The translations under genes and the position numbers were made by a program. A DNA stretch of 64,000 nucleotides, from assembly GCA_038127095.1 (NCBI GenBank), contig JAYPGZ010000001.1, positions 72,205 through 136,204 on the forward strand, in the 5' to 3' direction. The DNA comes from Candidatus Roizmanbacteria bacterium (GTDB lineage: Bacteria; Patescibacteriota; Microgenomatia; UBA1406; HO2-37-13b). Below the pieces are notes generated by a model. The model was given only the letters and a program-made list of their open reading frames with translations, was not told where the DNA came from and did not search any database. Position 1 is the stretch's first letter. Each line of letters begins with the position of its first letter. Shown one piece after another: positions 15,084 through 44,105 of the stretch.

Positions 15084-15123
15084 GATTGAAGTATACTACA
15101 AGAGAAGAGTCTTTTAGAAAATA

Positions 15124-15894: not shown

Positions 15895-15937
15895 GATTTT
15901 ATCCTTAGTTTTTAGCTAAACGCAAATTTCAATTAAA

Positions 15938-20827: not shown

Positions 20828-20836
20828 TTTAATTAA

Positions 20837-23797: not shown

Positions 23798-23882
23798 AAA
23801 TTTTTTGTACTTGTTATGCTTTTCACTTTGGCCTCATTTTATCAAAAATCGGCTCCTAATACAAAGGGCATAGAGGTTTGAA

Positions 23883-24542
23883 ATGTGCTATAGTATTTAT
23901 ATGACGCCAACTACATTGGTCATTGTGATATTTGCGATCGTAGCTATTTTTGTTTACCTCATATTAAAACTCATCGATGCACTTATCAGGATCTCCCAAC
24001 GAATTGAATCAACCAATACACATCTTGATGAGATACATATTGAAATGGCAGAGCTTGCACAAATCTTAAGTACAACATTGCTGGGGCTTAAGAGTAAAGA
24101 TGATGATCTTGATTCACGCGTTGAGGATCTTGAAAATATTGCTGACCCAACATACGATGAAGATGATTTAGATCCATTTTATGATCAGGCTGTAAAAATT
24201 GTAACTGAATCAGGAAGTGCTTCTGCATCATTGCTTCAACGTCGACTCGACATCGGCTATGCCCGAGCCGCACGATTAATCGATGTGCTTGAATCAAAAG
24301 GTATTGTGGGACCAGCTGAAGGCAGTAAGCCACGTCAGGTTTTCTCATCAGCAACGGAAGCTGAGCCCTTATTTGAACAAGCAATTAAACTTGGTCAAAA
24401 AGAAGGCAGAATTTCTCCAGCAATGTTACAAAGAAATCTACAGATTGGTTATGCCCGAGCTGCACGTATTATGGACTTACTTGAAATTGAAGGGTATATT
24501 GGGCCCGCAGATGGAGCAAAGCCACGACTAATTTTAAAGTAA
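23883..24542 (+). CDS. membrane-anchored protein with two tandem FtsK gamma (KOPS-binding winged-helix) domains
   Basis: N-terminal TM helix, coiled region, then LLQRRLDIGYARAARLIDVLESKGIVGPAEGSKPRQV and MLQRNLQIGYARAARIMDLLEIEGYIGPADGAKPRLI, each matching the FtsK gamma-domain consensus; no FtsK motor domain. Confidence 0.6.
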   Translation: MCYSIYMTPTTLVIVIFAIVAIFVYLILKLIDALIRISQRIESTNTHLDEIHIEMAELAQILSTTLLGLKSKDDDLDSRVEDLENIADPTYDEDDLDPFYDQAVKIVTESGSASASLLQRRLDIGYARAARLIDVLESKGIVGPAEGSKPRQVFSSATEAEPLFEQAIKLGQKEGRISPAMLQRNLQIGYARAARIMDLLEIEGYIGPADGAKPRLILK

Positions 24543-24543
24543 T

Positions 24544-24948
24544 ATGCAACTAAAGAGAGTTCTTATCCTTGAAGATGACCTCGAAACCGTTTCTGTGCTA
24601 TTGGGTAAACTTGCAAGCCTTGAAAATGAACTCATGAAATCTGATAGGAAAGTTGAGTTTTCTTTCATGGTGATGTCCGAATATACAGATGTTGATACGA
24701 TGATAAACGGGCTGGATGCTGAATCGTTTGATATTATTCTGCTTGACAGAGATTGTAAGGTTGCCGGCTCATTCCACATTTTAGATATCGAAAAATTTGG
24801 GGTAGATAAAGTGATCTCTATATCTTCAACACCTCCATATAATGAGGACGCAAAGCAACGAGGAGTTAAACGGGTAGCGCATAAGGACTATGCGAATCTC
24901 ACTACATTTGCAGATGCGGTAATGGATCACATTAAAGAGCTTATATAA
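24544..24948 (+). CDS. stand-alone CheY-like receiver domain protein
   Basis: VLILEDD...IILLDRD...(putative phospho-Asp)...ISISS...K pattern of response-regulator receivers; 2-nt gap from the upstream gene. Confidence 0.5.
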   Translation: MQLKRVLILEDDLETVSVLLGKLASLENELMKSDRKVEFSFMVMSEYTDVDTMINGLDAESFDIILLDRDCKVAGSFHILDIEKFGVDKVISISSTPPYNEDAKQRGVKRVAHKDYANLTTFADAVMDHIKELI

Positions 24949-24949
24949 C

Positions 24950-24985
24950 TACCATCGCCATCGATGGTAATTTATTCGATCTTTT
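24950..24985 (+). terminator. candidate rho-independent terminator
   Basis: Perfect 8-bp stem TACCATCG/CGATGGTA with loop CCAT, then T-rich tract ATTTATTCGATCTTTT, immediately after the stop codon. Confidence 0.5.
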
Positions 24986-25097
24986 AGCCACGAATCACTT
25001 GCATTTTGTTTCCTCTTTATCCTTATAAATAAGGAAAGGGAAACACTTTCCTCCCTTATCGTATATAATAGGGAGGATTAAGGTGGGCTAAACTACA

Positions 25098-25871
25098 ATG
25101 ATACATACAAACATAACTAACAAACAAAAAGAAATACTTCTTCTTCTCTACCGATTCCGGTTTCTCAACAGACAGCACATACAAACACTCCTTCGTCATA
25201 AAAACAAAAAGAATATAAACACGTGGCTCAAAGATCTCACAGAAAAAGGATACATAAACAGAATATTCAAACGATCATGGACAGAAAACTCAGTACCGGC
25301 AAAATACTACATCGCACTCAATGGCATACGATATCTTAAAACCAATCCAGACTGTAAAAAAGAATATCTTCGTAAGCTTTATCGTGAAAAGGACCGCTCA
25401 CAAAAATTTATCGATAAATGTCTCTTTATTGCAGACATTTACATTCGGTTTTTGAAAGACTCTGTGGAAAATATCACCCATTATCAATTTTCCACACAAT
25501 CTGACTACACGCCCGGCAGCATCGTAACCGACATCATGCCCGATTTTCTGGTCATTACAGGAAACAACAATGTAAAACAATACCATCTCTTCCAGCTATT
25601 TCCTGAGGGAACGCCCCGTTTTGCAGTTCGCAAGCGTATTGAGCAATATATGACATTTTTAACTGAGGAAGACGGCACGCACTTAAATGCTGTTCTTCAC
25701 CTTGTGGCACATACTGAGGCATTATATGTATATTTAACTCGCCACACTGAAAGAATCCTTGAGGATGAGAGTATATCGGTACCAATTCGAGTACTATCGT
25801 ATGATCAGATCGCACAGCACGGATTACAGCTTGAAGACCCGGAAACAACTGATGAGTCAGAACTCGAGTAG
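25098..25871 (+). CDS. replication-relaxation (Replic_Relax-like) winged-helix protein
   Basis: N-terminus LTNKQKEILLLLYRFRFLNRQHIQTLL... resembles Replic_Relax family proteins of conjugative/mobilisable elements; assignment by pattern only. Confidence 0.45.
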   Translation: MIHTNITNKQKEILLLLYRFRFLNRQHIQTLLRHKNKKNINTWLKDLTEKGYINRIFKRSWTENSVPAKYYIALNGIRYLKTNPDCKKEYLRKLYREKDRSQKFIDKCLFIADIYIRFLKDSVENITHYQFSTQSDYTPGSIVTDIMPDFLVITGNNNVKQYHLFQLFPEGTPRFAVRKRIEQYMTFLTEEDGTHLNAVLHLVAHTEALYVYLTRHTERILEDESISVPIRVLSYDQIAQHGLQLEDPETTDESELE

Positions 25872-25877
25872 CACATC

Positions 25878-26294
25878 CTACATCAGCCCTTTCTCCTTCA
25901 TGCTTATATATGTACCCTTCGCATAAATAATATGGTCGATAACCTTTATACCCAATATATTTCCGGCATCAATCATCCGTCTGGTTGAGGCAACGTCTTC
26001 TGAGGACGGATTAGGATCACCAGAGGGGTGATTGTGGGCGAGAATAATCTGCGATGTGCATTCTCTCACTGCTCGAACAAACACTTCCCGCGGATGAACC
26101 AGTGACGCATTGAGTATTCCTATACTTACCAGCTCAAACGTTGTAATATTACTCCGTGCATCAAGATGAATTACAAAAAAATGTTCTTTATGACGATCAA
26201 TACCGTCTTGTGTCTTAAAAAACCTATCAAGCAAATTATAGAGCCCTTTCGAATTACTTATTTTTTTCATTGACTCACTGACTTTTATTTTCAT
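25878..26294 (-). CDS. radC: RadC-like JAB/MPN domain protein
   Basis: ILAHNHPSGDPNPSSEDV is the RadC/JAMM signature (HxHPSG...PS..D). Confidence 0.7.
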   Translation of the reverse strand: MKIKVSESMKKISNSKGLYNLLDRFFKTQDGIDRHKEHFFVIHLDARSNITTFELVSIGILNASLVHPREVFVRAVRECTSQIILAHNHPSGDPNPSSEDVASTRRMIDAGNILGIKVIDHIIYAKGTYISMKEKGLM

Positions 26295-26367
26295 ACTAGT
26301 GGAATTAAAATTTTTAATAAAAAACCGCAGGCAACGGTTACGCCCGCTACCTGCGGCTTACAACACC

Positions 26368-26661
26368 TCATCTTTTGGGCAACTCAGACAACCGACATGG
26401 TGTAAAGTACCTATCTCGTTCAACCGGCAGTCCCAATGCGCCTCGTACTGTACTGATCTCTGAAAGCGAAAAATACCCAAGTTCCCGTTCAAACCCATCG
26501 ACCAGGCCGTAAAATGTGTCATTACCATCAAATTCAACGACATACCACGTCCAGCTTGAGTCTGGTGTAAAAAACTTACACCATACCATCGGATCTTCAG
26601 TATTCTCACTTGCATACAACTTCGGCAGCTTGCTGCGGATATCTGCAGTCAATAGCATCAT
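26368..26661 (-). CDS. DUF2958-like protein (common on conjugative elements)
   Basis: FFTPDSSWTWYVVEFDGNDTFYGLVDGFERELGYFSLSEI; strong RBS GGAGGTGGGG 3 nt before the Met-Met start, so the start is moved from the ORF-track 26724. Confidence 0.5.
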   Translation of the reverse strand: MMLLTADIRSKLPKLYASENTEDPMVWCKFFTPDSSWTWYVVEFDGNDTFYGLVDGFERELGYFSLSEISTVRGALGLPVERDRYFTPCRLSELPKR

Positions 26662-26909
26662 AAACCCCACCTCCTTTCGATATGAAAATTGATAAATCAG
26701 GTCAGGTATGCTCCTGTCCTTCAAAAAAGGGGCATGGGGTGAAGACGTAGGCTGTCAAAAGTTTCGCAAGAAAGGATTGTAATGCCTGTCAGAAAAATGA
26801 TGACATCAATAATGAACAGTCATTATTGTCATTTTTCTACAGGTTTACATACCCGCCTTTTGACAGATGCGGCAAACCCCATAAAATAGGAAAGAAAGGA
26901 CAGGAGAGA

Positions 26910-27326
26910 CTAGCTTTGTTTAGGTTTTTCAATCACCTGAAGATACATAGAATAGTCATAATCTGCATTACCTTTTTCAAGAACATATTTTCCGGTTGGT
27001 TCATTCCCAAGCACTATACATGGAACAGCTGACTGAGCAAGTTCAAGATAGGAATAATAGGTACGATAGTCATCACTCATAATAAATAGGTCATCCTTTT
27101 GATACACATGTAAGTATGGATATCTGCCAGCTTTGATATCCATAAGCACACTATGAGAAAAGGCAGACGATGGTTCCGGTTTATATTCTGAAAATGGTTT
27201 GATTCCTTCGATTTGTATGACCGCTTTATAGAAAGGAAGCTGCTTTTGCAGCACTTTCCTAAAAAGTTCTGAAAACATAGAATCCATTGGGATTTTATTG
27301 TCTATTTTTATATCTGAAATGTTCAT
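26910..27326 (-). CDS. hypothetical protein (possibly ParB-like nuclease domain)
   Basis: 138-aa ORF; weak resemblance to the ParB N-terminal domain (...IVLG...), not secure. Confidence 0.35.
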   Translation of the reverse strand: MNISDIKIDNKIPMDSMFSELFRKVLQKQLPFYKAVIQIEGIKPFSEYKPEPSSAFSHSVLMDIKAGRYPYLHVYQKDDLFIMSDDYRTYYSYLELAQSAVPCIVLGNEPTGKYVLEKGNADYDYSMYLQVIEKPKQS

Positions 27327-28967: not shown

Positions 28968-28977
28968 TGGAACGCTC

Positions 28978-29089
28978 TCAGGGGACGGAAACCGGTATTG
29001 TCATTGTGATTGGACGCATTGTTCCAATTGACGTTCGACAAACCACCATTATCGGAATTACCACCGATGAGACGGCTATCGGAACCGAA
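28978..29089 (-). repeat. DGR template repeat (TR), sense on minus strand
   Basis: 112 nt identical to 29472..29583 except at 21 positions, all of which are T on the plus strand (A on the minus-sense TR). Non-coding: lies between avd and the target gene's 3' end. Confidence 0.85.
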
Positions 29090-29455
29090 CCAACGTGCTT
29101 CTCTCCTATTCCGACTCACTGTGCCCAGATTACTCCACAACACTGTATTTTATACGTTTTATCTTTTTATGAAATAAAACTAACAGAGAAGCACACACAG
29201 CTTTCCTTCCTGTTTATATTCCCGCCGGCATATTTACGCTTCTTTTCCCACATAAGAGAACAGAACTCTGAAAGTGATGCCGGGAGAAAGCAGAGCAGCC
29301 GGCAGGCGTACCTGACCGGATAGTGGCTTTGCTAAGGTCAATTGTAGCAGATAATATTCGGAAATCTCAAAAAATTTTTTGGCTTCGCCAAAATCCAAGA
29401 ATCCAATACACAAAACACCAATACAAGAACCAAGATAATCAAGAGTACAAGGATT

Positions 29456-34839: not shown

Positions 34840-34868
34840 TTGACAACGACATTTGAATAGTGTATACT
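34840..34868 (+). promoter_or_regulatory. near-consensus sigma70-type promoter (TTGACA, 17 nt spacer, TATACT)
   Basis: Read directly: ttgacaacgacatttgaatagtgtatact about 40 nt upstream of the pilin-like gene. Confidence 0.4.
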
Positions 34869-34908
34869 TCTGCATCACATTGTAAATTAGTGTGATTAAC
34901 TAAAAAAT

Positions 34909-35187
34909 ATGGGTCCAGACGGGTACAACAGCGCACAACCTCTCCAGTTTTCAAATCTCGATCAGTTACTATGGGGAATTGTTAAAACCCTTCAATACTA
35001 CTCACTTCCTGCTATGGCCATCGCAATTGCAACCTTAGGAGTATTTCTTGTCATGAGTGGCGATGACACAGACCGCAAATCAAAACTTCGTGGATGGATC
35101 ATTAACATTCTTGTTGGAGGACTTTTAGTTTTCGGAGCAGCAACCTTAGCACAGATTATTAAAACATTTGTTGGTGGAACAGCTTAA
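34909..35187 (+). CDS. TrbC/VirB2-like T4SS pilin
   Basis: 92 aa, two hydrophobic helices separated by a short charged loop (…LPAMAIAIATLGVFLVMSGDDTDRKSKLRGWIINILVGGLLVFGAA…), typical VirB2/TrbC architecture. Confidence 0.5.
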   Translation: MGPDGYNSAQPLQFSNLDQLLWGIVKTLQYYSLPAMAIAIATLGVFLVMSGDDTDRKSKLRGWIINILVGGLLVFGAATLAQIIKTFVGGTA

Positions 35188-35213
35188 CAAGCAATAAAAA
35201 ACAGCATATATGT

Positions 35214-36224
35214 ATGAAGTTTATCTATACACTTCTCATTCTTTCAATATTTCTTTTTAACACGTCTTCCGTTCTTGCCCAAAACTCTCCAACACCCACG
35301 TCAAAACCTCAAGTTCAATATACAAACGAATTTACCGTTGAAAATCAGCCCTCTGGGGTTGTGACATTGCTGCAGGATTTCATAAAAGGTTTTGATTCCT
35401 TTGTCGGAGGATTTGTCTTTTATACCCCAAATCCCCTTGATAAAACGATTACCTTACAAGATAAATCAGAAATACCCGGAGTTACTAAATACCGCGATAT
35501 GTTCTATCAGATTGCCATACCCGTACTTGCTATTATTATTGCGGCTATTGCCGTTTCAAAGCTTGGATCGGATAATACCCAAGAGCTCAAAAACTTTGCC
35601 GTACGGTTTGTCATAACCATCGTCTTATTCATCACCGTACCCCACGCCCTCTCATACAGCATACAAGCAAATAACTTACTCGTTGAGAAAATATCAACGA
35701 CACAAAAGTTCACGGGCTTTTTAGATGACTACTTTACCAAAACCCAAGAAAAGATTAATCAAGGTGAAAGCGCAGAGCAATATGGTATTCCGTCATTTGA
35801 TATATCGCTTATCGGAGGCATTTTCAAATCCTTTGGTAAATTCATCGTTCAGATATTTCTTTTTATCTTAACCTTCTTGTTTCTTCTTATGGGTTTCTTG
35901 TACTTAGGTTTCCAATTTGTTATCCGTTTTGCTGCACTTTTGTTTCTAGGTGTATTGTATCCAATCATCATTCCCTTTATGTTGTCTGAGAAAACACAGC
36001 CGATTGTACAAACATTTTTCAAATCGTGGCTCACGTTCCTGATCCAACAACCAGCCTTTGTTCTGGGCTTTGCGATTGCTACTGATATCTTTACGAGCAT
36101 TCTCCAGTCAAAAGGCCCGAGTGTAGGCATGCTTTTCTTCTATACCGGCTTCTTATTTTTCCTCGGCGGCGTGAATATCTTGGTCTCCCGCATCTTCGGG
36201 GGGCTGGACGGGCGAGACTCTTGA
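35214..36224 (+). CDS. VirB6/TrbL-like polytopic membrane protein
   Basis: Signal peptide (…SSVLAQNSP), soluble region, then ≥5 TM helices in the C-terminal half; position next to the pilin gene. Confidence 0.4.
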   Translation: MKFIYTLLILSIFLFNTSSVLAQNSPTPTSKPQVQYTNEFTVENQPSGVVTLLQDFIKGFDSFVGGFVFYTPNPLDKTITLQDKSEIPGVTKYRDMFYQIAIPVLAIIIAAIAVSKLGSDNTQELKNFAVRFVITIVLFITVPHALSYSIQANNLLVEKISTTQKFTGFLDDYFTKTQEKINQGESAEQYGIPSFDISLIGGIFKSFGKFIVQIFLFILTFLFLLMGFLYLGFQFVIRFAALLFLGVLYPIIIPFMLSEKTQPIVQTFFKSWLTFLIQQPAFVLGFAIATDIFTSILQSKGPSVGMLFFYTGFLFFLGGVNILVSRIFGGLDGRDS

Positions 36225-36462
36225 TGCAGCTCTTGCCGCAGCTATCTTCATACGCACATCTGCAACTTTAGCTGCATGCTTCGCATGCACAGCCGCGAGT
36301 TCATCGTGTTGGATAGGGCCTTGAACATCCTCGTCTTGTAATTGTGGTATTGCACCTGGCTTTTCTTCCACCATAAACTGGGAAATGAAACTATTAAGTG
36401 CATATATTCTCTCACAATCGGAATCTCATGTCAATAGCCTTCGAGCGACAACATAGTGCCTA

Positions 36463-37017
36463 TTAACCTATCTTCGAAATCAACCGCTCAACAAGTGTTC
36501 TGAACTCTGTGCCTAGTTTCCTGAATTGACTATCGTTCTTGGCAAACGATTCCCATTGCCCGCGAGTCTCTTTGGTATAAGCCGCCGGATCGTTTTTTAA
36601 ATCCTCGTTTCCTGAAACAATTGTACTGAGCTTTTCCATTCGAATTTGTATTACACCGAACAACTCGATTGACTGCTGAACTAGTTGCCGCAAGTCATTT
36701 GCTAGTGCCTCAATTCTCGCTTTGCCAACAATGGCCTCCCTTCGATGGAAATATGCTCCAAACAGCATTTCTAAGTCTGATACAAATCGCCGGCGGATCG
36801 AGATGGACTCAGACTCCCGAGATAACAGGTCCTTCAGTTCAAAAGCAGGCAATGCCTCAAACAGCTGATTGTTAGGCTCCCATTCCAATTGTCTCGGTAG
36901 TGATTGAAGATGTTGCCGCACAAAATTATCCAAATCGTGATCAGCAATGAGATTCCAATCAGACGGCACCAGGTCGCGAATAGCCATTTGAGTAGACTTC
37001 GACTTGGCCTGTAGCAT
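36463..37017 (-). CDS. hypothetical protein
   Basis: 184-aa ORF, no motif. Confidence 0.4.
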   Translation of the reverse strand: MLQAKSKSTQMAIRDLVPSDWNLIADHDLDNFVRQHLQSLPRQLEWEPNNQLFEALPAFELKDLLSRESESISIRRRFVSDLEMLFGAYFHRREAIVGKARIEALANDLRQLVQQSIELFGVIQIRMEKLSTIVSGNEDLKNDPAAYTKETRGQWESFAKNDSQFRKLGTEFRTLVERLISKIG

Positions 37018-37076
37018 CCCAGTATGACGATAGTAAGAATGGTCTTACCTCATACTATTCAACACGCTCTGATGCG

Positions 37077-37400
37077 TTGCGAGATGGGGCTAGAGAAGAT
37101 GAAATTAACAAAGTCATGTTCAATGGCGACCGATTTATTGATCTTTCCACCTTTTCCAAAGACACGCCTAATCCCCATAACTTCAATGCCATGCAGGAAG
37201 CCAAGCGACAGGGAAAAGATATTGATTATGCATATGTGACCCAATCAAGCCCTCCTCAAAAGGTAAAGCAATTTTTGGCGATGTCAGGAAAGCGCAATGA
37301 TGCCTATGGCATAAAGGGTGTAGTGGTATCCCGTCAAGGAAAAGACAGTAGCGACCATATTATTCGTTTATATTCCCCCGGTCAAGGGAAGAAAAAATAA
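37077..37400 (+). CDS. hypothetical protein (start uncertain)
   Basis: 107-aa ORF just upstream of a membrane protein gene. Confidence 0.3.
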   Translation: MRDGAREDEINKVMFNGDRFIDLSTFSKDTPNPHNFNAMQEAKRQGKDIDYAYVTQSSPPQKVKQFLAMSGKRNDAYGIKGVVVSRQGKDSSDHIIRLYSPGQGKKK

Positions 37401-37403
37401 CCT

Positions 37404-38213
37404 ATGAAAAGTGTGCGGATATATAAAGACAATATTCGAGAACATGTATTGCGAAGTCTATTTTTTACCGATACCGCAATTGCTATCGGCGGAGCGATTG
37501 TGATTGCTGCCGTCGTATTTGTCATATTCAAATATTTCCTGCATTTCTTTGATTGGGGATATTATGGATTGACGGTTCTTACCTGCGAAGTGTTTTTCAT
37601 TGGACTGGTTACGCAAAAGCTTGATAATCAGCCTATCTACAAGATTGTGCCACGGGGATTGAAACATTCGGTAAGCAAAAAGAATTTACGCCATGCTGAT
37701 ATTGATTCATACTTCACTGACTTTGCAATTCAAGACAATCTGATTGTCCGCAAAAACAGTATTATCTCGATGCTTGCGGTTGAGCCGTATGACATTGCAC
37801 TCCTTAATGATCAAGACCGAGAACATTTCTTTGTCAAAATCAAGCAAATGATCCATGTCTTGCCCTCAGGAGTCCAGTTTATTATCAGAAAAGAAAGAGC
37901 AACGATGGAAGAATATTCAAAGCATGTGTCTTCCTTATACAAAGATGCCAACACTAAACGAGAACCACTGATTCACAATTACTTAAAAGATCTATCAGAT
38001 CTCATCAGTAACCACTCATTTGTCACCATGCGCCACTACGCGGTGTTTTCCGTCAGTTGTGACAGCAAAAAGGCCAATGAAAAGGTAAAAGCAATCAAGA
38101 AGTTATCAGATATGAGTATTCGATTTGCCTCGGCATTGTCTGCCTGCAATATTACGGCTACACCACTTACAAACAATGAACTGTTACACGTTGCAACCAC
38201 CACCCTACGATGA
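37404..38213 (+). CDS. membrane protein, possibly VirB3-like / VirB4 N-terminal-like partner
   Basis: Two N-terminal TM helices; 4-nt overlap with the VirB4-like ATPase gene. Confidence 0.4.
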   Translation: MKSVRIYKDNIREHVLRSLFFTDTAIAIGGAIVIAAVVFVIFKYFLHFFDWGYYGLTVLTCEVFFIGLVTQKLDNQPIYKIVPRGLKHSVSKKNLRHADIDSYFTDFAIQDNLIVRKNSIISMLAVEPYDIALLNDQDREHFFVKIKQMIHVLPSGVQFIIRKERATMEEYSKHVSSLYKDANTKREPLIHNYLKDLSDLISNHSFVTMRHYAVFSVSCDSKKANEKVKAIKKLSDMSIRFASALSACNITATPLTNNELLHVATTTLR

Positions 38214-40366
38214 GAAAAACAACCAAAAAACAAACCAATGGGAAACATCCGAACAAGGTACTTATTACGCTGGATCGCTTTAATGTGAGTCGAAAGCTAA
38301 AAGAAGAAGTAGAGCTTTTAAGTATTGAAAAGGCAAAGAAGGTATATGAACTTAACAAAGTCCTGAAGGAATACAAACTTTATGAAAAGAAAAATACGGG
38401 ACTGCAAAAAATTGAGGAACATTTCTTTAATGGAGAACCAAAACTGCACCAAAATGCACTCACCCTGGCACTTCGGGAAGAAATTGGGCGACTCATGGAT
38501 ATTATCAAGTCACAACAGGAGATGATTGCCAAAGAATCATTTGTGCAGAATGAATTACCACAAATACGCAAGCCTGAGTTTGTTGCAAGCAACAATCCGA
38601 TCAAGCTACTTCGCAATTACCGAGCATATAAAAAAGAATTGCAAGAATATCATCAGGCTATCCATGAATCAAATATAACTGATTTTCATTTTGTCCTTGA
38701 AAAAGATGAAAAAGGATTAGTCATTGAGCGAGATGGAACCAAGAAATACAAAGCAGACTATTTACAGGAAAAAAGTTCTCATTTGCAAGTCGGTGAAAAA
38801 GTCAGGCGATTCTACTATTTAGCTGATATTCCCGCTTACTTAAGTCCCTATGTGTTTTTTAGACTGCTAACTTCCAGTTTACCGTTTACCTTAAGCGTCT
38901 TTGTACAACCAACACCGAGTGGTGAACTTTTGAAAAAAGCCAGACAAAGACTCTCTGTCTTGGAAATGCAGCAAAACGATCGGTTGAAAGCTGGAAAACT
39001 CAGAGATCAACAGATTGATAAAAATATCGAGGAGGTTATGTCCTTTATTGATGAACTTGTGCATGAAGCCGAGAAAGGGATTGTGTATTCATTGTATTTA
39101 CAGCTTGAAGCTGACAGTGAAAAAAAACTCGCTGCGCTTCATAAGCAACTCCAAAACGTAACAAGTGCGATGGATATTACATTTAATCAATATACCTTCG
39201 GTCACAAGAGAGCATTCAAGAATTTCTTACCCTTTAATCAAGATCATGTCAAAGAAAATAGGATTTTGCAGTCAACGGCAGCTTCATACTTGATGCCGTT
39301 TGTGTCAAAACAGTTAAATGATCACAATGGTATTTTTATGGGTGTGAATGCATACAATAATAGCTTGGTGTTTATTGATCCATTTACCTCCCGAAACAAT
39401 AATATCAACATCTTTGGTGTCTCGGGGTCTGGTAAAAGTGTGACAGCTAAAACCTTGATGAACCGCCTCTATATGCGTGGTGTGCAAATCATTGTCATTG
39501 ATCCTGAAGGAGAATATATTGATCTTGCCAGATCTTTAGGAGGAGAAGTTATTCAATTTTCGAGAGAGAATGGGATTAACCCTTTTTATATCAATAGCTC
39601 TAATGAAAATGATATTTTAGATCATATCTCAACGCTTAAAACCTTCTTCAAATTCTTTATCCCCGAACACCACTACGATGGCGCACTTTTAGATGAAAAG
39701 CTCATTAAGCTCTATGACAGCTCATCGCCGTCATTTGAGAACTTACTGGAGCTTCTAGGTGATAGTCCCATGACACGAGATTTGAGTGTGTTATCAGATG
39801 GAAGTTTGCGGGGTGTATTTAACTCAACTCGACGACTTGAGCTCAATAACGACATCATTGTCCTTGATTTGCATGACCTGAAAAAAGATGAGAAACGAGA
39901 TCCTGCCATCTATCTTTTGACGTCGCTTATTTGGAACTTGGTTAATAAGGCAAATGGTAAGAAACGCATGCTCTTTATTGATGAAGCGCACAAGTTACTG
40001 GTTGATCCAGAGGTCGCTGTATTCTACCGAGAATTGGTCAAGCAGGCTCGTAAGCGCAATGTGGGAGTCGTGTCGATTACGCAGGATGTCGAAGACTTTT
40101 TGCATAATGAATATGGCAAAGCGATTATTACGAACTCTGAAACAAAAATTTTACTCAAGCAATCATATGCCACGCTTGATCAGATTGGCACGATTTACCC
40201 CATGACGGATGAGGAAAAACAGCAATTGGGACATTTGGAGATTGGAGAAGTAGTACTTTTCAGAGAAGGAGAACATATTCGACTCAATATCTTAGTATTA
40301 CAACATGAGCAAAACTTAGTATTTACCTCATTTAGTACTTCGCATGAGTCTGATCAGCAAAGTTAA
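38210..40366 (+). CDS. VirB4/TraC/TrbE-like conjugative ATPase
   Basis: Walker [27 protein letters not shown], Walker B KRMLFIDEAHKLL, C-terminal ...VSITQ. Confidence 0.75.
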   Translation: MRKTTKKQTNGKHPNKVLITLDRFNVSRKLKEEVELLSIEKAKKVYELNKVLKEYKLYEKKNTGLQKIEEHFFNGEPKLHQNALTLALREEIGRLMDIIKSQQEMIAKESFVQNELPQIRKPEFVASNNPIKLLRNYRAYKKELQEYHQAIHESNITDFHFVLEKDEKGLVIERDGTKKYKADYLQEKSSHLQVGEKVRRFYYLADIPAYLSPYVFFRLLTSSLPFTLSVFVQPTPSGELLKKARQRLSVLEMQQNDRLKAGKLRDQQIDKNIEEVMSFIDELVHEAEKGIVYSLYLQLEADSEKKLAALHKQLQNVTSAMDITFNQYTFGHKRAFKNFLPFNQDHVKENRILQSTAASYLMPFVSKQLNDHNGIFMGVNAYNNSLVFIDPFTSRNNNINIFGVSGSGKSVTAKTLMNRLYMRGVQIIVIDPEGEYIDLARSLGGEVIQFSRENGINPFYINSSNENDILDHISTLKTFFKFFIPEHHYDGALLDEKLIKLYDSSSPSFENLLELLGDSPMTRDLSVLSDGSLRGVFNSTRRLELNNDIIVLDLHDLKKDEKRDPAIYLLTSLIWNLVNKANGKKRMLFIDEAHKLLVDPEVAVFYRELVKQARKRNVGVVSITQDVEDFLHNEYGKAIITNSETKILLKQSYATLDQIGTIYPMTDEEKQQLGHLEIGEVVLFREGEHIRLNILVLQHEQNLVFTSFSTSHESDQQS

Positions 40367-41111
40367 GACGGCTCATGCGTTTAAAAATGATCCGTTTGGC
40401 TTTATAGCTGATCTGGTCATTACCGTTATTGCCAACCTCGTTATTCCCATTCCTTTAGCTGGAGAAGCCCTGAAAGCATTTAAAGGTCCCATCTTGTGGC
40501 TCCTTGGCTCATTCATCCTCCTTGGGATATTTATGCTGATTGTCATCGGAACCGTTGTCTTTTCTCCCGTGATTGTCAGTACTACCTTTTTTGATCGTAT
40601 TGCTACACTTGGAACTCCAGGTTCGCTTAATGTTTCATATGATGGCACATTTGCCGAGACCTCTATCCCATATCAAAATCCACTTGGTGGAACTGGCATG
40701 ACCTATACCTCAGTTACTGCATACTTTCATGACCCTGCCTACTTTCTGCAATTTGGCAGGATTCATAACGGAATAGATTTAGTTCCAACCGACACATATT
40801 ACAAAAATAGCAAAACATATCAGGAAGTACATCAAGTGATCGCGTTTTCAACTATTAATGGCAACGCACGATCATATATTGATGAGTTTGGATCACAAAC
40901 GGTGGAAGTTACGAATGATGATAGTACCTTACAAGCTGTCTTTATGCATTTTAAGCAGATATTAGTAAATGATGGAGAAATCAAGGCAGGAACACCACTA
41001 GGCGTTATGGGGAAAACAGGGCTCGCGACTGGAGAACACGTACATTATGAAATACGAGTTAAAAGTGGTTCAAACTGGACACCGGTTAACGCATTAAGTT
41101 ATATACAATAA
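40344..41111 (+). CDS. M23-family peptidase (peptidoglycan hydrolase, VirB1-analogous) with N-terminal TM anchor
   Basis: HNGIDL...FMHF...GEHVHYEIR signature of LytM/M23 metallopeptidases. Confidence 0.7.
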   Translation: MSLISKVKTAHAFKNDPFGFIADLVITVIANLVIPIPLAGEALKAFKGPILWLLGSFILLGIFMLIVIGTVVFSPVIVSTTFFDRIATLGTPGSLNVSYDGTFAETSIPYQNPLGGTGMTYTSVTAYFHDPAYFLQFGRIHNGIDLVPTDTYYKNSKTYQEVHQVIAFSTINGNARSYIDEFGSQTVEVTNDDSTLQAVFMHFKQILVNDGEIKAGTPLGVMGKTGLATGEHVHYEIRVKSGSNWTPVNALSYIQ

Positions 41112-41115
41112 CAGT

Positions 41116-41868
41116 ATGAAAGATATTGCAGTTAATCCATTAACACAAGGACAACGAAGAATACTTCAATTAGGAGTAGTATTTTTACTGTGTATCTTTC
41201 TCATTGGATACTTTTTTATGATGAGTCGGACCAAAAATACCACGGTGTATTTGCAAAATGAAACTCTACAAGTATTTGATGAAACTATACCGTTTGCCTA
41301 TCCGGACAAATTGGAGCTGCACTTTCCCTACTTACTTGTTGTTAAGCCAGAAGAGCACAAGACACTTGTATATGATCTACAAGAGAAACAAAAAAAAGAA
41401 GAGGTTCAACATGTAATCTTAGACTACGCACAGGAACAGTCCTTATATAACGAAGGGGCCAGTTCATTTCTTAAGGGAGTGAGTTTAAAGGCTTTATGTG
41501 TAGAAGGAATTATTAAATCAAAGAGTGAGATTTTATGTGTCTCAGACAACAAGCTTTTAAGTGTTGATCCTATTTCTAAAAGACAAAGAATACTATATAT
41601 ATCGAGATATATCATTACTGACTTGAATTTGATTGGTGGCAAATATTACTTAGGAGAAATCGATCCTGGAACAAAGAAGAGTTACATTGTTACTGGGGGA
41701 AAACAAATAACCGTACCAAATGTTGTGAGTGTGATCTATGAACTCAATGGGAAACCATACTTTGTATCGCTAAAAGGCGCATTGAATCCTAACAAGGAAG
41801 AGTTTTATGAAATAGAACAGAACAATGCTGTATTGCGAGGAGAAAATAAAATCATGCTTTACGAATAA
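41116..41868 (+). CDS. hypothetical membrane-anchored protein
   Basis: 250-aa ORF, single N-terminal TM helix. Confidence 0.4.
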   Translation: MKDIAVNPLTQGQRRILQLGVVFLLCIFLIGYFFMMSRTKNTTVYLQNETLQVFDETIPFAYPDKLELHFPYLLVVKPEEHKTLVYDLQEKQKKEEVQHVILDYAQEQSLYNEGASSFLKGVSLKALCVEGIIKSKSEILCVSDNKLLSVDPISKRQRILYISRYIITDLNLIGGKYYLGEIDPGTKKSYIVTGGKQITVPNVVSVIYELNGKPYFVSLKGALNPNKEEFYEIEQNNAVLRGENKIMLYE

Positions 41869-41997
41869 TATGATTGCTAAACTGGTAGATAAAATTAAGG
41901 GAATCTTGAGGACTATTTTTCCTCGAAAGGGAGATATTGAGTGGAAGGAAATTAGTGGAATGGTGCGAGAGAAGAAATCAAAGAACTAAAATTATAT

Positions 41998-43446
41998 TTA
42001 TTCCACTACTCTAAATAAAGAGTTTATTTTACTAAATGAGAGCCCTGGATAATTCCATTTGAATCCATACGGGAAAAGGAAGCTTATCAAATCTTTCTTT
42101 TGACTAACTTCGCTATTTCTATATGTATTTTCAAGCTCCGTCATAGATTTTGTAATATATTCACTGGCGCGTTCTATAGTATATCGTTGTAAACGATCAT
42201 TGTTTGTAATTACCTTAATAGCTTTAATATTGTCATCAAGTTGCTCACATTGTTCCCTGAATATTTCATCAGAATAGATACCTGATAAATGTTTTTGAAT
42301 AAGGCTTCTTTTTAACTCGTGAAGCTTTTCAAGATGTCGCTTACTATTCATTCTTTTCTTGTCGATAATTGAAAATCTTTTCATATATTCATTTTTTACA
42401 AGTTGCAAAAAGATTTCCTTTCCATAAGAAGTAATAGTGATTGTCTCTAAAAGGTCTAGGAGCGCTTGATGAATGTGTTTTATTGGTATGTTAGCAGATC
42501 GACATATTTTAGCTTGACGACAGAAATAATAAGCATATCGGCTATTTCTTCCACTGCTCCAAGCACCCGTAAAGAGAGTTTCACATTTACCACACGTAAG
42601 TAACCTTCTTAAAGGAAAGTCTGGATTCAGTTGATTCCTGCGAAATAAAAATGGGTGTTTTGGTCTTCTATTATCAAGAATTACCTGAACCTTATTAAAT
42701 TGCTCCCTTGTAATCATAGGTACGTGTTGGCCTTGGACTTCCTCTTGATATGTCGGAGAATAGAGAACGCCCATATAAAACTTCGAATGAAATATTCTAC
42801 TTATGGTTTGTGGTCGTGTTGGTATTCCCCAGTCATTCATAATAGAAGTAATTTCTCGAAGAGATTTTGTTCCTGTTGACATCAAATCCCAAATTTTCTT
42901 CACCTTTTCAAAGGTTTTCTCATCTTTGAGCACAACTCCATCAAGACTTAGATAGCCAATAGGCGGATGCCCACTATACAGTCCCAATTTAAAACGTGCC
43001 CGCATTCCATTTCGCGCACGCTCACTACGAACATCATTATCAAGCTGAGCAATTTGAGCAAAGAAATTTCCAAGAAACTTACCCATTGGGGTATCATCCG
43101 TGGGTTCTGTAGCTGATATAAGTTTTATGCCAAGATTGCTAAGTTTTTGTTGAATCACTAAATAATCAAAAATCTGCCGTGATAAACGATCAGTTTTATA
43201 GATAATAACTGCCCCAACTTCTTTCTTGTTTTTTTGACAATATCCTAAAAGCTCAATAAGAATAGATCTTCCCGTAATAGTTTTAGCCGATCTCCCTTCT
43301 TCACGAAATACTTTATCTACAACATACCCTCGATATTGTGCTTCTCTCATGCAAATTTCTTCCTGAGTTTTTAGAGAAAAGTTTTCTACTTGTTCTTCTG
43401 TTGAAACTCGTAGATATAAAATGGCTTTTTTTAACGGTTCATTCAT
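41998..43446 (-). CDS. large serine recombinase (second copy type)
   Basis: AILYLRVSTEEQ catalytic motif, ...IYKTDRLSR..., recombinase domain and C-terminal Cys cluster (CGKCETLF...C..C). Confidence 0.8.
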   Translation of the reverse strand: MNEPLKKAILYLRVSTEEQVENFSLKTQEEICMREAQYRGYVVDKVFREEGRSAKTITGRSILIELLGYCQKNKKEVGAVIIYKTDRLSRQIFDYLVIQQKLSNLGIKLISATEPTDDTPMGKFLGNFFAQIAQLDNDVRSERARNGMRARFKLGLYSGHPPIGYLSLDGVVLKDEKTFEKVKKIWDLMSTGTKSLREITSIMNDWGIPTRPQTISRIFHSKFYMGVLYSPTYQEEVQGQHVPMITREQFNKVQVILDNRRPKHPFLFRRNQLNPDFPLRRLLTCGKCETLFTGAWSSGRNSRYAYYFCRQAKICRSANIPIKHIHQALLDLLETITITSYGKEIFLQLVKNEYMKRFSIIDKKRMNSKRHLEKLHELKRSLIQKHLSGIYSDEIFREQCEQLDDNIKAIKVITNNDRLQRYTIERASEYITKSMTELENTYRNSEVSQKKDLISFLFPYGFKWNYPGLSFSKINSLFRVVE

Positions 43447-43634: not shown

Positions 43635-44105
43635 TTACTTTTTAAAGCTTAAGAAGCGTAGTATTTCATGGCTCATTTTTTTACTTTCAATTCTCCTCAT
43701 AATTTCTCTGCTACTATTTTGAGAAAGTATATTCAGACTGCCTTCCCAAATAATTTTTCTATCAATAATAGCAAGTTTTCGGTGAAAATTGCCCTTAAGC
43801 ATTGTTATTTTAACTCCAAGTTCATAGCAGGCAAGTATTTCATTAGTTGCTTGGTATTTAAGAAATTCATCATGCTCGGCAGGATCTCTAGTAATAATAT
43901 GAATTTTTACCTTTCTATCTAATAGGCCTTTAAATATAGGGATTAACATCTCCACTCTTGAGCTTGTTATGAAAGGACATTCGATAATAACCTCGGTCTT
44001 ACTTCTTTTCAGGTCATGAATAAACGCTTGATAGAAGGTATGCTCATCGTGTAAAATAGAGGTGGCCAAATCGGGTTGTGGTGTCAACCATTTTAACCAG
44101 TTCAT
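43635..44105 (-). CDS. PLD-family (HKD) Nuc-like endonuclease
   Basis: HRKLAIIDRKIIWEGSLNIL is an HxK(x4)D(x6)GSxN motif; ~155 aa like plasmid Nuc. Confidence 0.7.
   Translation of the reverse strand: MNWLKWLTPQPDLATSILHDEHTFYQAFIHDLKRSKTEVIIECPFITSSRVEMLIPIFKGLLDRKVKIHIITRDPAEHDEFLKYQATNEILACYELGVKITMLKGNFHRKLAIIDRKIIWEGSLNILSQNSSREIMRRIESKKMSHEILRFLSFKK

What the first reader, a model, noticed from the sequence alone, without database searches (positions are those of the whole stretch)
34840..41868. Compact T4SS-like module (pilin, VirB6-like, VirB3/4-like, VirB4, M23 hydrolase) with a near-consensus promoter
Seven co-directional genes begin 40 nt after a TTGACA-17-TATACT promoter. Pilin, channel, ATPase and cell-wall hydrolase are the minimal Gram-positive-type conjugation or secretion set. 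Together with the distant VirD4-like gene, this suggests a functional DNA or protein export apparatus.
Basis: partly seen in the sequence, partly recalled or inferred. Interest (0 to 1): 0.55.

Follow-up and report, generated by a model that had tools for sequence, protein, structure and literature searches.

The report
Patescibacterial T4SS module with broken virB6
This is a real copy of the pilus-bearing type IV secretion gene set already described in ultra-small (CPR/Patescibacteria) bacteria, sitting in what looks like an integrated conjugative element, but its channel gene virB6 has been cut in two by foreign DNA, so the machine may no longer work.

Summary
The T4SS call is right, but the gene count and the inference of function need correcting. 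Window 34909-41868 holds the six-gene module conserved in Microgenomatia/WWE3 Patescibacteria:
- VirB2/TrbC-like pilin
- VirB6-like channel protein
- TrsD-like protein, homologous to the VirB4 N-terminus
- VirB4 ATPase
- membrane-anchored M23 peptidase
- a conserved bitopic 250-aa protein

The TTGACA-17-TATACT promoter is real. Its hexamers and spacing are invariant in 12 of 12 relatives.

About 0.82 kb of higher-GC DNA (~36200-37020) replaces the gene's middle. That DNA carries an antisense 184-codon ORF with no homologue in any database searched.

Synteny with relatives ties the module to a T4CP (the "distant VirD4"), a Replic_Relax candidate relaxase, FtsK-gamma, RadC, DUF2958, a PLD nuclease and large serine recombinases. 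This is an ICE-like island that also carries defence and DGR cargo.

This T4SS type was described in 2025 (PMC12102498), so this is a new and probably decaying member of a known kind. Interest is modest.

The parts
34840..34868 (+). sigma-70-type promoter, TTGACA-17-TATACT, 40 nt upstream of the pilin ATG
   Evidence: 11 of 12 consensus match. TTGAC and TAnAnT with the same spacing are invariant in 12 of 12 aligned relatives although the flanks diverge.
34909..35187 (+). VirB2/TrbC-like pilin, 92 aa, with two hydrophobic helices separated by a charged loop
   Evidence: Pfam TrbC 30.6 bits, above the 27.9 cut-off; T4SS_pilin is weak. It is 65-95% identical to the pilins of 6 relatives.
35214..36224 (+). 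5' fragment of the virB6-like gene (336 aa): signal peptide plus the whole polytopic helical domain. Homology ends at about nt 36199; the last residues and the stop codon come from the foreign segment.
   Evidence: 72-75% identical to residues 1-~330 of the 580-587-aa orthologues. DNA homology ends at 36179-36199. TrbL hit 21.9 bits. The orthologue model's top 5 PDB fold matches are TrwI/VirB6 of R388.
36200..37020 (.). Foreign segment of about 0.82 kb replacing about 410-425 nt of virB6 (the disordered linker and the start of the C-terminal domain)
   Evidence: blastn breakpoints against six orthologues. GC is 45.5% against about 40% in the flanks. No terminal repeats, no Rfam family, no copy elsewhere in the window. 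An identical arrangement is present in an independent Logan assembly of SRR26337526.
36463..37017 (-). 184-codon ORFan, antisense to the module; its ATG lies within about 10 nt of the right junction
   Evidence: Longer than chance: 7 of 3000 dinucleotide shuffles reach 184 codons. GC1 > GC3 > GC2, as in coding sequence. No homologue found. No Pfam, NCBIfam or PADLOC hit.
37021..37400 (+). 3' remnant of virB6: the last ~125 codons of the C-terminal alpha/beta domain remain in frame. The listed 107-aa ORF (37077-37400) starts at an internal TTG.
   Evidence: In-frame translation upstream of the TTG continues the homology (YDDSKNGLTSYY...). 71-74% identical to the six closest relatives and a median of 57% across 35 loci. 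The first helix and two strands of the domain are missing.
37404..38213 (+). TrsD-like protein, 269 aa: an N-terminal pair of transmembrane helices plus a domain homologous to the N-terminus of VirB4
   Evidence: NCBIfam Mycoplasma-ICE VirB4 positions 15-259 (E 2e-11) and TrsD/TraD (E 1.4e-5). Of 10 family members, 3 hit TraC_F_IV and 2 hit PrgI faintly. Present as a separate 269-270-aa gene in all relatives.
38210..40366 (+). VirB4 ATPase, 718 aa
   Evidence: There are 532 homologues, and the best 120 are 70-82% identical; those that carry a name are Roizmanbacteria or Shapirobacteria. Further relatives come from Levyibacteria, Daviesbacteria and WWE3.
40344..41111 (+). Membrane-anchored M23 peptidoglycan endopeptidase, 255 aa; plays the VirB1 role
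   Evidence: Pfam Peptidase_M23 39 bits. HNGID and HVH motifs present. Conserved immediately after virB4 in 43 of 49 loci.
41116..41868 (+). Conserved sixth gene, 250 aa: one N-terminal transmembrane helix plus a beta-rich outer domain; fold unresolved
   Evidence: Found in 42 of 49 loci, median 41% identity; aligned. No Pfam hit and no PDB profile hit. The single-sequence AF2 model is unusable apart from the TM helix (pLDDT 40).
41998..43446 (-). Large serine recombinase, 482 aa; candidate integrase of the element
   Evidence: Pfam Resolvase, Recombinase and Zn_ribbon_recom. Homologues 47-49% identical lie directly beside the T4SS module in L034, L045 and L046.
43635..44105 (-). PLD-family (Nuc-like) nuclease, 156 aa
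   Evidence: Pfam PLDc_2 49.6 bits. Found within a few kb downstream of the module in 24 of 49 loci.
9365..11911 (+). VirD4-type coupling protein (T4CP), 848 aa
   Evidence: Pfam TrwB_AAD_bind 50.6 bits, T4SS-DNA_transf 31 bits and TraG-D_C 27.2 bits, all above their cut-offs. Walker A GATGTGKT. Syntenic with the module in L003/L015, L019 and L044.
23883..27326 (.). Backbone block of the element: FtsK-gamma x2 DNA-binding protein (23883-24542), a 134-aa ORF, Replic_Relax candidate relaxase (25098-25871), RadC (25878-26294, minus), DUF2958 (26368-26724, minus) and a 138-aa ORF (26910-27326, minus)
   Evidence: Pfam hits. About 73% DNA colinearity of 23828-26907 with L020 and of 25303-27326 with L013, both of which have the same T4SS module downstream.
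6688..8478 (-). Second large serine recombinase, 596 aa, at the left edge of the island. Its 3' end overlaps tRNA-Leu(gag) at 6765-6849.
   Evidence: Pfam hits and tRNA prediction. It is 25% identical to the 482-aa recombinase.

Best explanation
Window 34840-41868 is the mating-pore/pilus module of the Patescibacteria-clade type IV secretion system, which is related to the monoderm MPF-FATA class.

How it is built (inferred from the known roles of these families):
- A conserved sigma-70-type promoter drives one operon.
- The operon encodes a VirB2-like pilin; a VirB6-like polytopic channel protein; a membrane-anchored TrsD-like protein, homologous to the VirB4 N-terminus, that probably tethers the ATPase; the VirB4 ATPase that powers assembly and transport; an M23 endopeptidase that opens the peptidoglycan; and a conserved bitopic protein of unknown fold.

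Where it sits (shown by synteny): the module is the distal part of an integrated ICE-like element. The element also carries a VirD4-type coupling protein, a Replic_Relax candidate relaxase, FtsK-gamma, RadC, DUF2958 and PLD-nuclease genes, and large serine recombinases. Later cargo includes a Type III restriction-modification system, a DrmD-like helicase and a DGR.

What is special about this copy (shown): virB6 has been broken. About 0.82 kb of foreign DNA carrying an antisense ORFan replaces the linker and the start of the C-terminal domain. What remains is a 336-aa membrane-domain-only VirB6 and an untethered 3' remnant.

Consequence (inferred): this copy is most likely impaired or in early decay. 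The other five genes are still intact, so the event is recent.
For: Family assignments.

Conserved module: the six-gene order appears in 7 fetched contigs and in 35-47 of 49 loci per gene.

Promoter: the hexamers are invariant in 12 of 12 relatives.

virB6 break:
- Protein alignment.
- In-frame upstream translation of the 3' remnant.
- DNA breakpoints at 36179-36199 and 37010-37047 against six orthologues.
- 164 homologues, nearly all 570-590 aa. The two short ones on longer contigs that were looked up end at contig ends.
- The orthologue model shows a TM domain at 45-335, a disordered stretch at 341-423 and a confident alpha/beta domain at 425-580.
- The same junctions appear in a separate Logan assembly.

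ICE context:
- T4CP and Replic_Relax are syntenic with the module in L003/L015, L019 and L044.
- The FtsK-gamma/Replic_Relax/RadC/DUF2958 block is colinear in L020 and L013.
- Serine recombinases abut the module in L008, L034, L045 and L046.

Decay happens in this lineage: L034 is a second copy in one genome that lacks pilin, virB6 and trsD and has a split virB4.

Literature: this T4SS clade and its components are described in PMC12102498.
Against: - The truncated VirB6 keeps the entire region homologous to canonical VirB6/TrbL, which is itself only about 300 aa in minimal systems (my own knowledge). The machine could therefore still assemble.
- No + strand terminator-like site lies in the inserted segment, so downstream genes may still be expressed.
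- The virB6 fragments are only marginally more diverged than expected. The B6C/VirB4 identity ratio is 0.89-0.94, against 0.92-1.03 in intact pairs.
- ICE borders were not found; there is no att repeat.
- Most relatives' loci show no T4CP or relaxase within the 10-kb flanks.
- The literature argues that most Patescibacteria T4SSs are not conjugative.
- Both assemblies showing the junctions may derive from one read set.
Confidence: 0.72

Rival explanations
1. The module still works. A membrane-domain-only VirB6 of 336 aa, close in size to canonical VirB6, suffices for the channel. The lineage-specific C-terminal domain is dispensable, or is supplied separately from the 3' remnant or by a second copy elsewhere in the genome. 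The T4SS would then still build a pilus and move DNA or other molecules.
For: - The Pfam TrbL homology (residues 106-303) and the R388 TrwI fold match fall within the retained part.
- The other five genes are intact, with catalytic motifs present.
- The promoter is intact.
- No terminator-like site lies in the insert on the + strand.
- The 3' remnant keeps an open frame of about 125 codons.
Against: - About 160 homologues keep the full-length form with a highly conserved C-terminal domain, which implies selection for it.
- The remnant lacks the first helix and two strands of that domain. It has only an internal TTG or ATG as a possible start.
- Other decayed copies exist in this lineage, such as L034.
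Confidence: 0.3
2. The module is not a conjugation device at all. It is the chromosomal, host-interaction or uptake T4SS proposed for Patescibacteria, which is essential for epibiotic growth in Saccharibacteria. Its neighbourhood of mobile-element genes here would be coincidental.
For: - PMC12102498 finds relaxases in only 103 genomes, T4CPs rarely near virB4, and proposes repurposing, possibly for import.
- Upstream flanks in several relatives are ordinary metabolic or transporter genes.
- 43 of 49 loci have no T4CP or Replic_Relax hit within the fetched flanks.
Against: - T4CP, Replic_Relax and the T4SS recur in the same order in several relatives. Serine recombinases directly abut the module in others.
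- Some genomes have two diverged copies on one contig: CALRDH010000002.1 (L022 and L030) and CAZTFB010000001.1 (L014 and L034).
- VirB4 is 70-82% and the pilin 65-95% identical across named lineages as far apart as Roizmanbacteria, Shapirobacteria, Levyibacteria and WWE3.
- An essential host-interaction machine would not be expected to tolerate a broken virB6 unless another copy exists.
Confidence: 0.3
3. The interruption of virB6 is an assembly artefact: a chimeric join in a strain mixture, not a real genomic state.
For: - Several public contigs end inside virB6 (P0167 and P0222). This shows that assemblers often break in the variable linker.
- The ORFan has no relatives anywhere.
Against: - The Logan assembly contig L001 (7440 nt) is 100% identical to the window across both junctions and on both sides.
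- Both junctions would have to be chimeric in the same way in two assemblers.
- The inserted piece has a significant long ORF and coding-like GC periodicity.
Confidence: 0.08

Closest known systems
Patescibacteria-clade T4SS (Quinonero-Coronel et al. 2025, Microb Genom, PMC12102498; functional data from Southlakia epibionticum in Wang et al. 2023, Cell, PMC10633639, as cited in the two papers read; PMC10633639 itself was not read)
   Same: - VirB4 whose nearest homologues are all Patescibacteria.
- A separate TrsD-like gene just upstream of virB4.
- A VirB2-like pilin next to a monoderm-type system.
- A VirB6-like protein.
- An M23 peptidase downstream of virB4 instead of a classical VirB1.
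- No outer-membrane core components.
   Different: - A single, highly conserved pilin rather than a divergent pilin array.
- The paper reports VirB6 as 'scarce' in Microgenomatia. Here the Microgenomatia VirB6-like protein is identified (about 580 aa, with a confident C-terminal alpha/beta domain).
- This copy has virB6 broken.
- The module lies in an island with a T4CP, a Replic_Relax protein and serine recombinases, which the paper found only in a minority of genomes.
- No dnaA or dnaN is in view in this window.
MPF-FATA conjugation systems of Firmicutes and Tenericutes (pGO1/pSK41 Trs, pCF10 Prg, CTn2 CD1110 family, Mycoplasma ICE Mbov_0396/0397)
   Same: - The best NCBIfam hits of the ATPase are the CD1110 and Mycoplasma-ICE VirB4 families.
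- The 269-aa protein hits TrsD/TraD.
- The VirB6-like protein faintly hits the Mycoplasma ICE TM protein Mbov_0396.
- A cell-wall hydrolase sits in the operon, and the envelope logic is monoderm.
   Different: - All hits are far below the families' curated cut-offs (243 against 325; 238 against 590).
- MPF-FATA systems lack VirB2 pilins.
- No PrgL/VirB8-like or adhesin gene is recognisable.
- The hydrolase is M23 only, not the lytic transglycosylase plus CHAP arrangement.
Integrative and conjugative elements with large serine recombinases (e.g. Tn5397/CTn-type ICEs)
   Same: - Large serine recombinases, a T4CP, a VirB4-based pore module, a candidate relaxase and cargo defence genes.
- Insertion next to tRNA genes.
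   Different: - The relaxase assignment rests only on Pfam Replic_Relax.
- The borders and att sites are undefined.
- The pore module is damaged.
- The host is a CPR bacterium, for which conjugation has never been shown.
Archaeal Ced DNA-import system (CedA, CedA1, CedB)
   Same: A minimal set of a VirB2-like pilin, a VirB6-like membrane protein and a VirB4/HerA-like ATPase in a monoderm envelope (my own knowledge). Weak CedB and CedD hits of the ATPase.
   Different: The CedB and CedD hits (40-49 bits) are far below cut-off (600-700) and much weaker than the VirB4 hits. This locus also has TrsD, M23 and T4CP partners. It is not a member.

Membership tests
Type IV secretion system (VirB4-based) | VirB4-family ATPase with intact Walker A and B motifs, distinct from FtsK/HerA/T4CP | tested here: met
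   The VirB4 families are the top NCBIfam hits (243, 238, 168 and 107 bits), while FtsK_SpoIIIE and HerA_C fall below their Pfam thresholds. PDB 4AG5 VirB4 matches at E 2e-33. Motifs are present.
Type IV secretion system (VirB4-based) | VirB6/TrbL-type polytopic channel subunit, complete | tested here: not met
   The homology is real: TrbL in the window fragment and in 6 of 6 orthologues, and a TrwI fold match. But the gene is interrupted and only residues 1-~330 of about 580 remain joined.
Patescibacteria-clade T4SS (PMC12102498) | VirB2-like pilin encoded near virB4 | tested here: met
   Pfam TrbC at 30.6 bits, above the 27.9 cut-off. The gene lies 3 kb upstream of virB4 in the same operon.
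Patescibacteria-clade T4SS (PMC12102498) | TrsD-like protein (remote homologue of the VirB4 N-terminus) associated with virB4 | tested here: met
   NF041427 TrsD at E 1.4e-5 and NF045975 positions 15-259 at E 2e-11, both below the curated cut-offs. The gene overlaps the virB4 start by 4 nt.
Patescibacteria-clade T4SS (PMC12102498) | VirB4 falls in the monophyletic Patescibacteria clade, sister to MPF-FATA | not tested
   No tree was built and the reference MPF VirB4 sets are not at hand. Indirect support only: the best 120 of 532 homologues are 70-82% identical, and every named record among them and among the genome loci that is not an evident placeholder label is CPR: Roizman-, Shapiro-, Levyi- and Daviesbacteria, WWE3 and Saccharibacteria.
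Patescibacteria-clade T4SS (PMC12102498) | Separate VirB3/PrgI-like small membrane protein | tested here: inconclusive
   There is no separate gene. The 269-aa protein has an N-terminal pair of transmembrane helices, and 2 of 10 family members hit PrgI only faintly (E 0.048).
MPF-FATA class | Hits to the CONJscan MPF-FATA profiles above threshold | not testable with these tools
   The CONJscan and TXSScan profiles are not available. The NCBIfam surrogates (CD1110, TrsD, Mbov_0396/0397) hit but fall below their curated cut-offs.
Integrative and conjugative element (ICE) | Type IV coupling protein | tested here: met
   The 848-aa protein passes the Pfam cut-offs for TrwB_AAD_bind, T4SS-DNA_transf and TraG-D_C. 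It is syntenic with the module in relatives.
Integrative and conjugative element (ICE) | Relaxase of a recognised MOB class | tested here: inconclusive
   The 257-aa protein passes Pfam Replic_Relax (39.7 bits against a 25.3 cut-off) and travels with the T4CP in relatives. The equivalence of Replic_Relax with MOBC is from my memory only, and MOBscan was not available. There is no NCBIfam hit.
Integrative and conjugative element (ICE) | Integrase and defined ends (att sites) | tested here: inconclusive
   Two large serine recombinases are present. No repeat marks the ends, though serine recombinases need only very short core sites. tRNA-Leu lies at the left edge.
Ced-type DNA import system | CedB/CedA family membership | tested here: not met
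   CedB scores 40.5 bits and CedD 49.2 bits against cut-offs of 700 and 600.

The most novel reading that the evidence does not exclude
The highly conserved six-gene pilus/T4SS module of Microgenomatia and WWE3 could be the transfer apparatus of a family of genuine ICEs. These would carry a T4CP, a Replic_Relax-type relaxase and a serine recombinase, and would move between deeply divergent CPR lineages. That would make conjugation among CPR bacteria directly testable and would qualify the current view that their T4SS has been repurposed. In this copy, the module has been knocked out by capture of a gene-sized ORFan fragment of unknown origin inside virB6.
Probability: 0.3. Interest if true: 0.55.

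Novelty: new member of a known kind. Interest (0 to 1): 0.3.

Why it matters
T4SSs with VirB2-like pilins in monoderm CPR bacteria are a recent discovery. They are essential for epibiotic growth in the one system tested, and what they transport is still unknown.

This locus adds three modest points:
- In the Microgenomatia-type module the VirB6-like subunit, reported as scarce in that class, is clearly present. It carries a conserved extra C-terminal domain.
- The module is repeatedly syntenic with a coupling protein, a candidate relaxase and serine recombinases. This keeps conjugation on the table for at least this subclade.
- Such modules can decay. Here virB6 is interrupted, and in L034 half the module is lost. 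That argues these copies are accessory rather than essential.

None of this overturns current knowledge. It refines the annotation of a known system.

Tried and rejected
1. Insertion sequence, MITE or intron as the nature of the 0.82-kb segment: rejected. There are no terminal direct or inverted repeats at the junctions, no transposase, no Rfam family in the window other than tRNAs, and no second copy in the window.

2. Invertible (shufflon-like) segment that would fuse the 184-aa ORF to the VirB6 membrane domain: considered because the ORF's ATG abuts the right junction. Rejected because no inverted repeats flank the segment and the native C-terminal domain is truncated in either orientation.

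3. Inversion of virB6's own middle part: rejected. The ORFan has no similarity to any VirB6 homologue.

4. Identity of the 184-aa ORF: nothing found.
   - Pfam, NCBIfam and PADLOC gave no hits.
   - The word-indexed search of 5.8 billion proteins returned only itself.
   - The exhaustive phmmer search of 1.84 billion representatives returned itself plus a spurious 30-residue match to a Q-rich 1703-aa protein.
   - A tblastn-confirmed scan of JGI metagenome contigs found nothing.

5. VirB8-like nature of the 250-aa protein: could not be decided.
   - The profile search against PDB gave only a chance-level DPP4 hit.
   - Pfam on 7 members found nothing.
   - The single-sequence AF2 model had pLDDT 40.

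6. att sites from the tRNA-Leu region: none found.

7. Test of horizontal against vertical spread by comparing housekeeping genes with T4SS genes in the same genomes: not possible. The fetched loci share no housekeeping gene with the window.

8. Naming the source organism: the exact-sequence look-up gave no names or accessions, and the genome is not among the GTDB representatives scanned.

Full report
**1. What is in the sequence**

Between 34909 and 41868 the + strand carries ORFs of 92, 336, 107, 269, 718, 255 and 250 aa. There is also a 184-codon ORF on the minus strand at 36463-37017, in an 850-nt gap between the 336-aa and 107-aa ORFs.

A TTGACA-17-TATACT site lies at 34840-34868, 40 nt before the first ATG. 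The number of promoter-like matches in the 10-kb region is what shuffles give (29 found, 29.3 expected), so the match alone proves little. However, in an alignment of the region upstream of the pilin gene from 12 loci, TTGAC, TAnAnT and their spacing are invariant while the surrounding sequence diverges strongly. That is a phylogenetic footprint of a real promoter.

**2. Family assignments**

- *92 aa.* Pfam TrbC/VirB2 pilin at 30.6 bits, above the curated 27.9. It is 65-95% identical among relatives.
- *336 aa.* TrbL/VirB6 at 21.9 bits, below the 25.9 cut-off. All six full-length orthologues scanned also hit TrbL, best E 6e-7.
- *VirB6 orthologue model.* An AlphaFold model was built for orthologue P0125 with 54 sequences (mean pLDDT 76). 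It has a helical membrane domain, and its five best PDB fold matches are all TrwI/VirB6 chains of the R388 T4SS. Probability reaches 0.99, but E-values are weak (0.02-0.1) and TM-score is 0.42 on the target.
- *718 aa.* This is a VirB4. NCBIfam gives VirB4-like CD1110 243 bits, Mycoplasma-ICE VirB4 238 bits, TraC-F 168 bits and VirB4_CagE 107 bits. All are below the equivalog cut-offs, so it is a divergent member. PDB 4AG5 (Thermoanaerobacter VirB4) matches at E 2e-33 and TrwK at 3e-4. Walker A and B motifs are present.
- *269 aa.* It matches positions 15-259 of the 894-residue Mycoplasma-ICE VirB4 model, and the 718-aa protein continues from position 261. It also hits TrsD/TraD. It is therefore a TrsD-like protein, meaning the N-terminal part of VirB4 encoded separately, with an N-terminal pair of transmembrane helices. 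Support for a VirB3/PrgI-like nature of that hairpin is faint.
- *255 aa.* A membrane-anchored M23 peptidase with HxxxD and HxH motifs.
- *250 aa.* No recognisable family. Its single-sequence model is unusable apart from one N-terminal TM helix.

Neither is met.

**3. The comparison that changes the picture**

VirB4 has 532 homologues, and the best 120 are 70-82% identical. Every informative source name points to CPR/Patescibacteria of the Microgenomatia and WWE3 type: Roizman-, Shapiro-, Levyi- and Daviesbacteria and WWE3. Many MAG titles are obvious placeholders.

In seven contigs fetched around these homologues the module has six genes in fixed order:

| Position | Gene | Size |
|---|---|---|
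| 1 | pilin | 92-94 aa |
| 2 | VirB6-like | 580-616 aa |
| 3 | TrsD-like | 269-270 aa (204 aa as called in L002) |
| 4 | VirB4 | 702-719 aa |
| 5 | M23 peptidase | 251-256 aa |
| 6 | conserved unknown | 256-264 aa |

A tblastn survey of 49 loci finds each gene in 35-47 of them.

Alignment shows that the window's 336-aa ORF equals residues 1-~330 of the 580-aa protein (72-75% identity). The 107-aa ORF equals its last ~100 residues. Homology continues in frame upstream of the ORF's TTG to about nt 37021.

At the DNA level, homology to six orthologues stops at 36179-36199 and resumes at 37010-37047. About 410-425 nt of virB6 are replaced by about 0.82 kb. The replacing DNA has 45.5% GC against about 40% on either side.

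In the orthologue model, the lost part is the disordered linker (341-423) plus the first helix and two strands of a confidently predicted C-terminal alpha/beta domain (425-580, pLDDT above 90).

Of 164 VirB6-like homologues, nearly all are 570-590 aa. The two short ones on longer contigs that were looked up simply end at contig ends. The break is therefore exceptional.

It is not peculiar to one assembly. A Logan contig from SRR26337526 is 100% identical over 35808-43247, which covers both junctions. It may, however, come from the same reads.

**4. The inserted segment**

- Its 184-codon ORF is longer than chance: 7 of 3000 dinucleotide-preserving shuffles reach that length.
- It has coding-like GC periodicity.
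- It has no homologue in the 5.8-billion-protein collection, in an exhaustive scan of 1.84 billion representatives (the single extra hit is a 30-residue match to a Q-rich repeat protein), or in JGI metagenome contigs.
- It has no Pfam, NCBIfam or PADLOC family.
- Its ATG lies within about 10 nt of the right junction. It therefore has no promoter of its own inside the segment and may be a 5'-truncated captured gene.
- There are no terminal repeats, no Rfam family and no other copy in the window.

Its origin is unexplained.

**5. Context**

The module lies in a roughly 37-kb island between tRNA-Leu/RuvB on the left and PLD nuclease/tRNA-Val on the right. The island holds:

- two large serine recombinases (6688-8478 and 41998-43446);
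- a VirD4-type coupling protein (9365-11911; three Pfam T4CP domains above cut-off);
- a Type III restriction-modification system, a DrmD-like SNF2 helicase and a Cas4-like nuclease;
- an FtsK-gamma DNA-binding protein;
- a Replic_Relax protein (25098-25871);
- RadC and DUF2958;
- a DGR with its target genes;
- the T4SS module and a PLD nuclease.

Synteny shows which of these belong together:

- L020 and L013 share the FtsK-gamma / 134-aa / Replic_Relax / RadC / DUF2958 (/138-aa) block. It is about 70-78% identical at the DNA level and is followed after different cargo by the same T4SS module.
- L003/L015, L019 and L044 have the T4CP and Replic_Relax 5-8 kb upstream of the pilin gene.
- L008, L034, L045 and L046 have serine recombinases abutting the module.
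- The PLD nuclease follows the module in 24 of 49 loci.
- Some genomes carry two diverged copies on one contig. One of these, L034, is itself degenerate: it has no pilin, virB6 or trsD, and virB4 is split into 109-aa and 506-aa ORFs.

This is the pattern of a conjugative-element backbone with swappable cargo. The element's ends were not found, and a relaxase function for Replic_Relax was not tested here.

**6. Mechanism**

Shown:
- gene identities, order and conservation;
- the promoter footprint;
- the virB6 break;
- the synteny with the T4CP, Replic_Relax and recombinases.

Inferred from established knowledge of T4SSs:
- VirB4, tethered through the TrsD-like membrane protein, energises assembly of the VirB2-like pilin and transport through a VirB6-lined membrane channel.
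- The M23 enzyme opens the wall.
- The T4CP would deliver a relaxase-bound DNA strand.

Inferred for this copy: loss of the covalent link between the VirB6 membrane domain and its conserved C-terminal domain most likely impairs the machine. The event is recent, because the other five genes and both virB6 fragments remain open. The fragments are only slightly more diverged than expected, with a B6C/VirB4 identity ratio of 0.89-0.94 against 0.92-1.03 in intact pairs.

A working machine with a minimal VirB6 cannot be excluded. I put it at about 0.3.

**7. Comparison with what is known**

This T4SS type has been described. Quinonero-Coronel et al. 2025 (PMC12102498) report the following:
- a Patescibacteria VirB4 clade sister to MPF-FATA;
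- abundant TrsD, VirB3/PrgI and VirB6 components and VirB2-like pilins;
- M23 and other hydrolases in place of VirB1;
- few relaxases (MOBC the commonest), which more often lie close to a T4CP gene (39) than to virB4 (15);
- T4CPs seldom near virB4.

A 2025 review (PMC12857230) summarises the Tn-seq evidence that the system is essential in Southlakia epibionticum.

The locus is therefore a new member of a known kind. Its differences are these:
- the Microgenomatia VirB6-like protein, called scarce in that paper, is clearly identified with an extra C-terminal domain;
- there is a single, highly conserved pilin;
- the context is ICE-like;
- virB6 is interrupted.

**8. Verdict**

- Observation: partly confirmed.
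- Interpretation: partly supported. The T4SS call is right; function is doubtful.
- Novelty: low to moderate.
- Interest: 0.3.

Noticed in passing
window 27556-32017: A complete diversity-generating retroelement (DGR).
- Reverse transcriptase at 27556-28608.
- bAvd-like accessory protein at 28608-28967 (Pfam bAvd, 73 bits).
- Template repeat at about 28975-29089.
- Variable repeat at 29470-29584, forming the 3' end of the minus-strand 853-aa gene (AAA_5 domain plus a C-terminal 'GGLSNVxWN...GFRPL' region).
- Template and variable repeats are 101/115 identical. 13 of the 14 differences fall at adenines of the coding strand.
- The target gene is followed by an 884-aa transglutaminase-core + vWA protein (32022-34676) that is divergent from the T4SS promoter.
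   Followed up: partly
window 11943-23797 (minus strand): A defence/cargo block lies between the coupling-protein gene and the backbone genes. It holds a Type III restriction-modification system (Mod 18579-20366 at 543 bits; Res 15938-18610 at 605 bits, with a TnsA-like C-terminus), a DrmD-like SNF2 helicase (20837-23797, 689 bits), a Cas4-like PD-(D/E)XK nuclease, a trypsin-like protease and an HD-domain protein. Type III-like MTase/helicase genes also sit next to the T4SS module in L002, L012, L014 and L022.
   Followed up: partly
L034 (CAZTFB010000001.1, 427409-449010): A second, degenerate T4SS copy in a genome that also has a complete one (L014). It has no pilin, virB6 or trsD, and virB4 is split into 109-aa and 506-aa ORFs. 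Its VirB4 is 90% identical to the window's over the 537 aligned residues (query residues 177-713), the highest identity found. It is flanked by serine recombinase genes and a T4CP fragment.
   Followed up: partly
L022 and L030 (CALRDH010000002.1, WWE3): Two full T4SS modules lie about 40 kb apart on one contig. Their VirB4s are 75% and 71% identical to the window's. This suggests paralogous or independently acquired elements.
   Followed up: no
window 6688-6849: The 3' end of the 596-aa serine recombinase ORF (minus strand) overlaps tRNA-Leu(gag) at 6765-6849 and the end of ruvB (5741-6742). This may mark the island's left attachment site. No matching repeat was found at the right side.
   Followed up: partly
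window 34871-34897 and alignment A6: Just downstream of the -10 box there is a palindrome, ATCACA-N11-TGTGAT. The left half (ATCACATTG/A) is conserved in the six closest relatives, some of which have ATCAC-N4-GTGAT. It could be an operator. Relatives encode an XRE-type HTH protein right after the module, but the window has no such gene there.
   Followed up: no
L011, L012 and homologue list: Several public contigs end inside the virB6-like gene, at about codons 275-413. This suggests that the low-complexity linker region is strain-variable and breaks assemblies.
   Followed up: no
loci L013-L053: Many GTDB-representative MAG records carrying this CPR-type module are titled 'uncultured Gammaproteobacteria', 'Pseudomonadales', 'Flavobacteriales', 'Planctomycetota' or 'Limnocylindrales'. 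For the TPA_asm records these look like placeholder or wrong labels rather than evidence of the module outside CPR. This was not verified.
   Followed up: no
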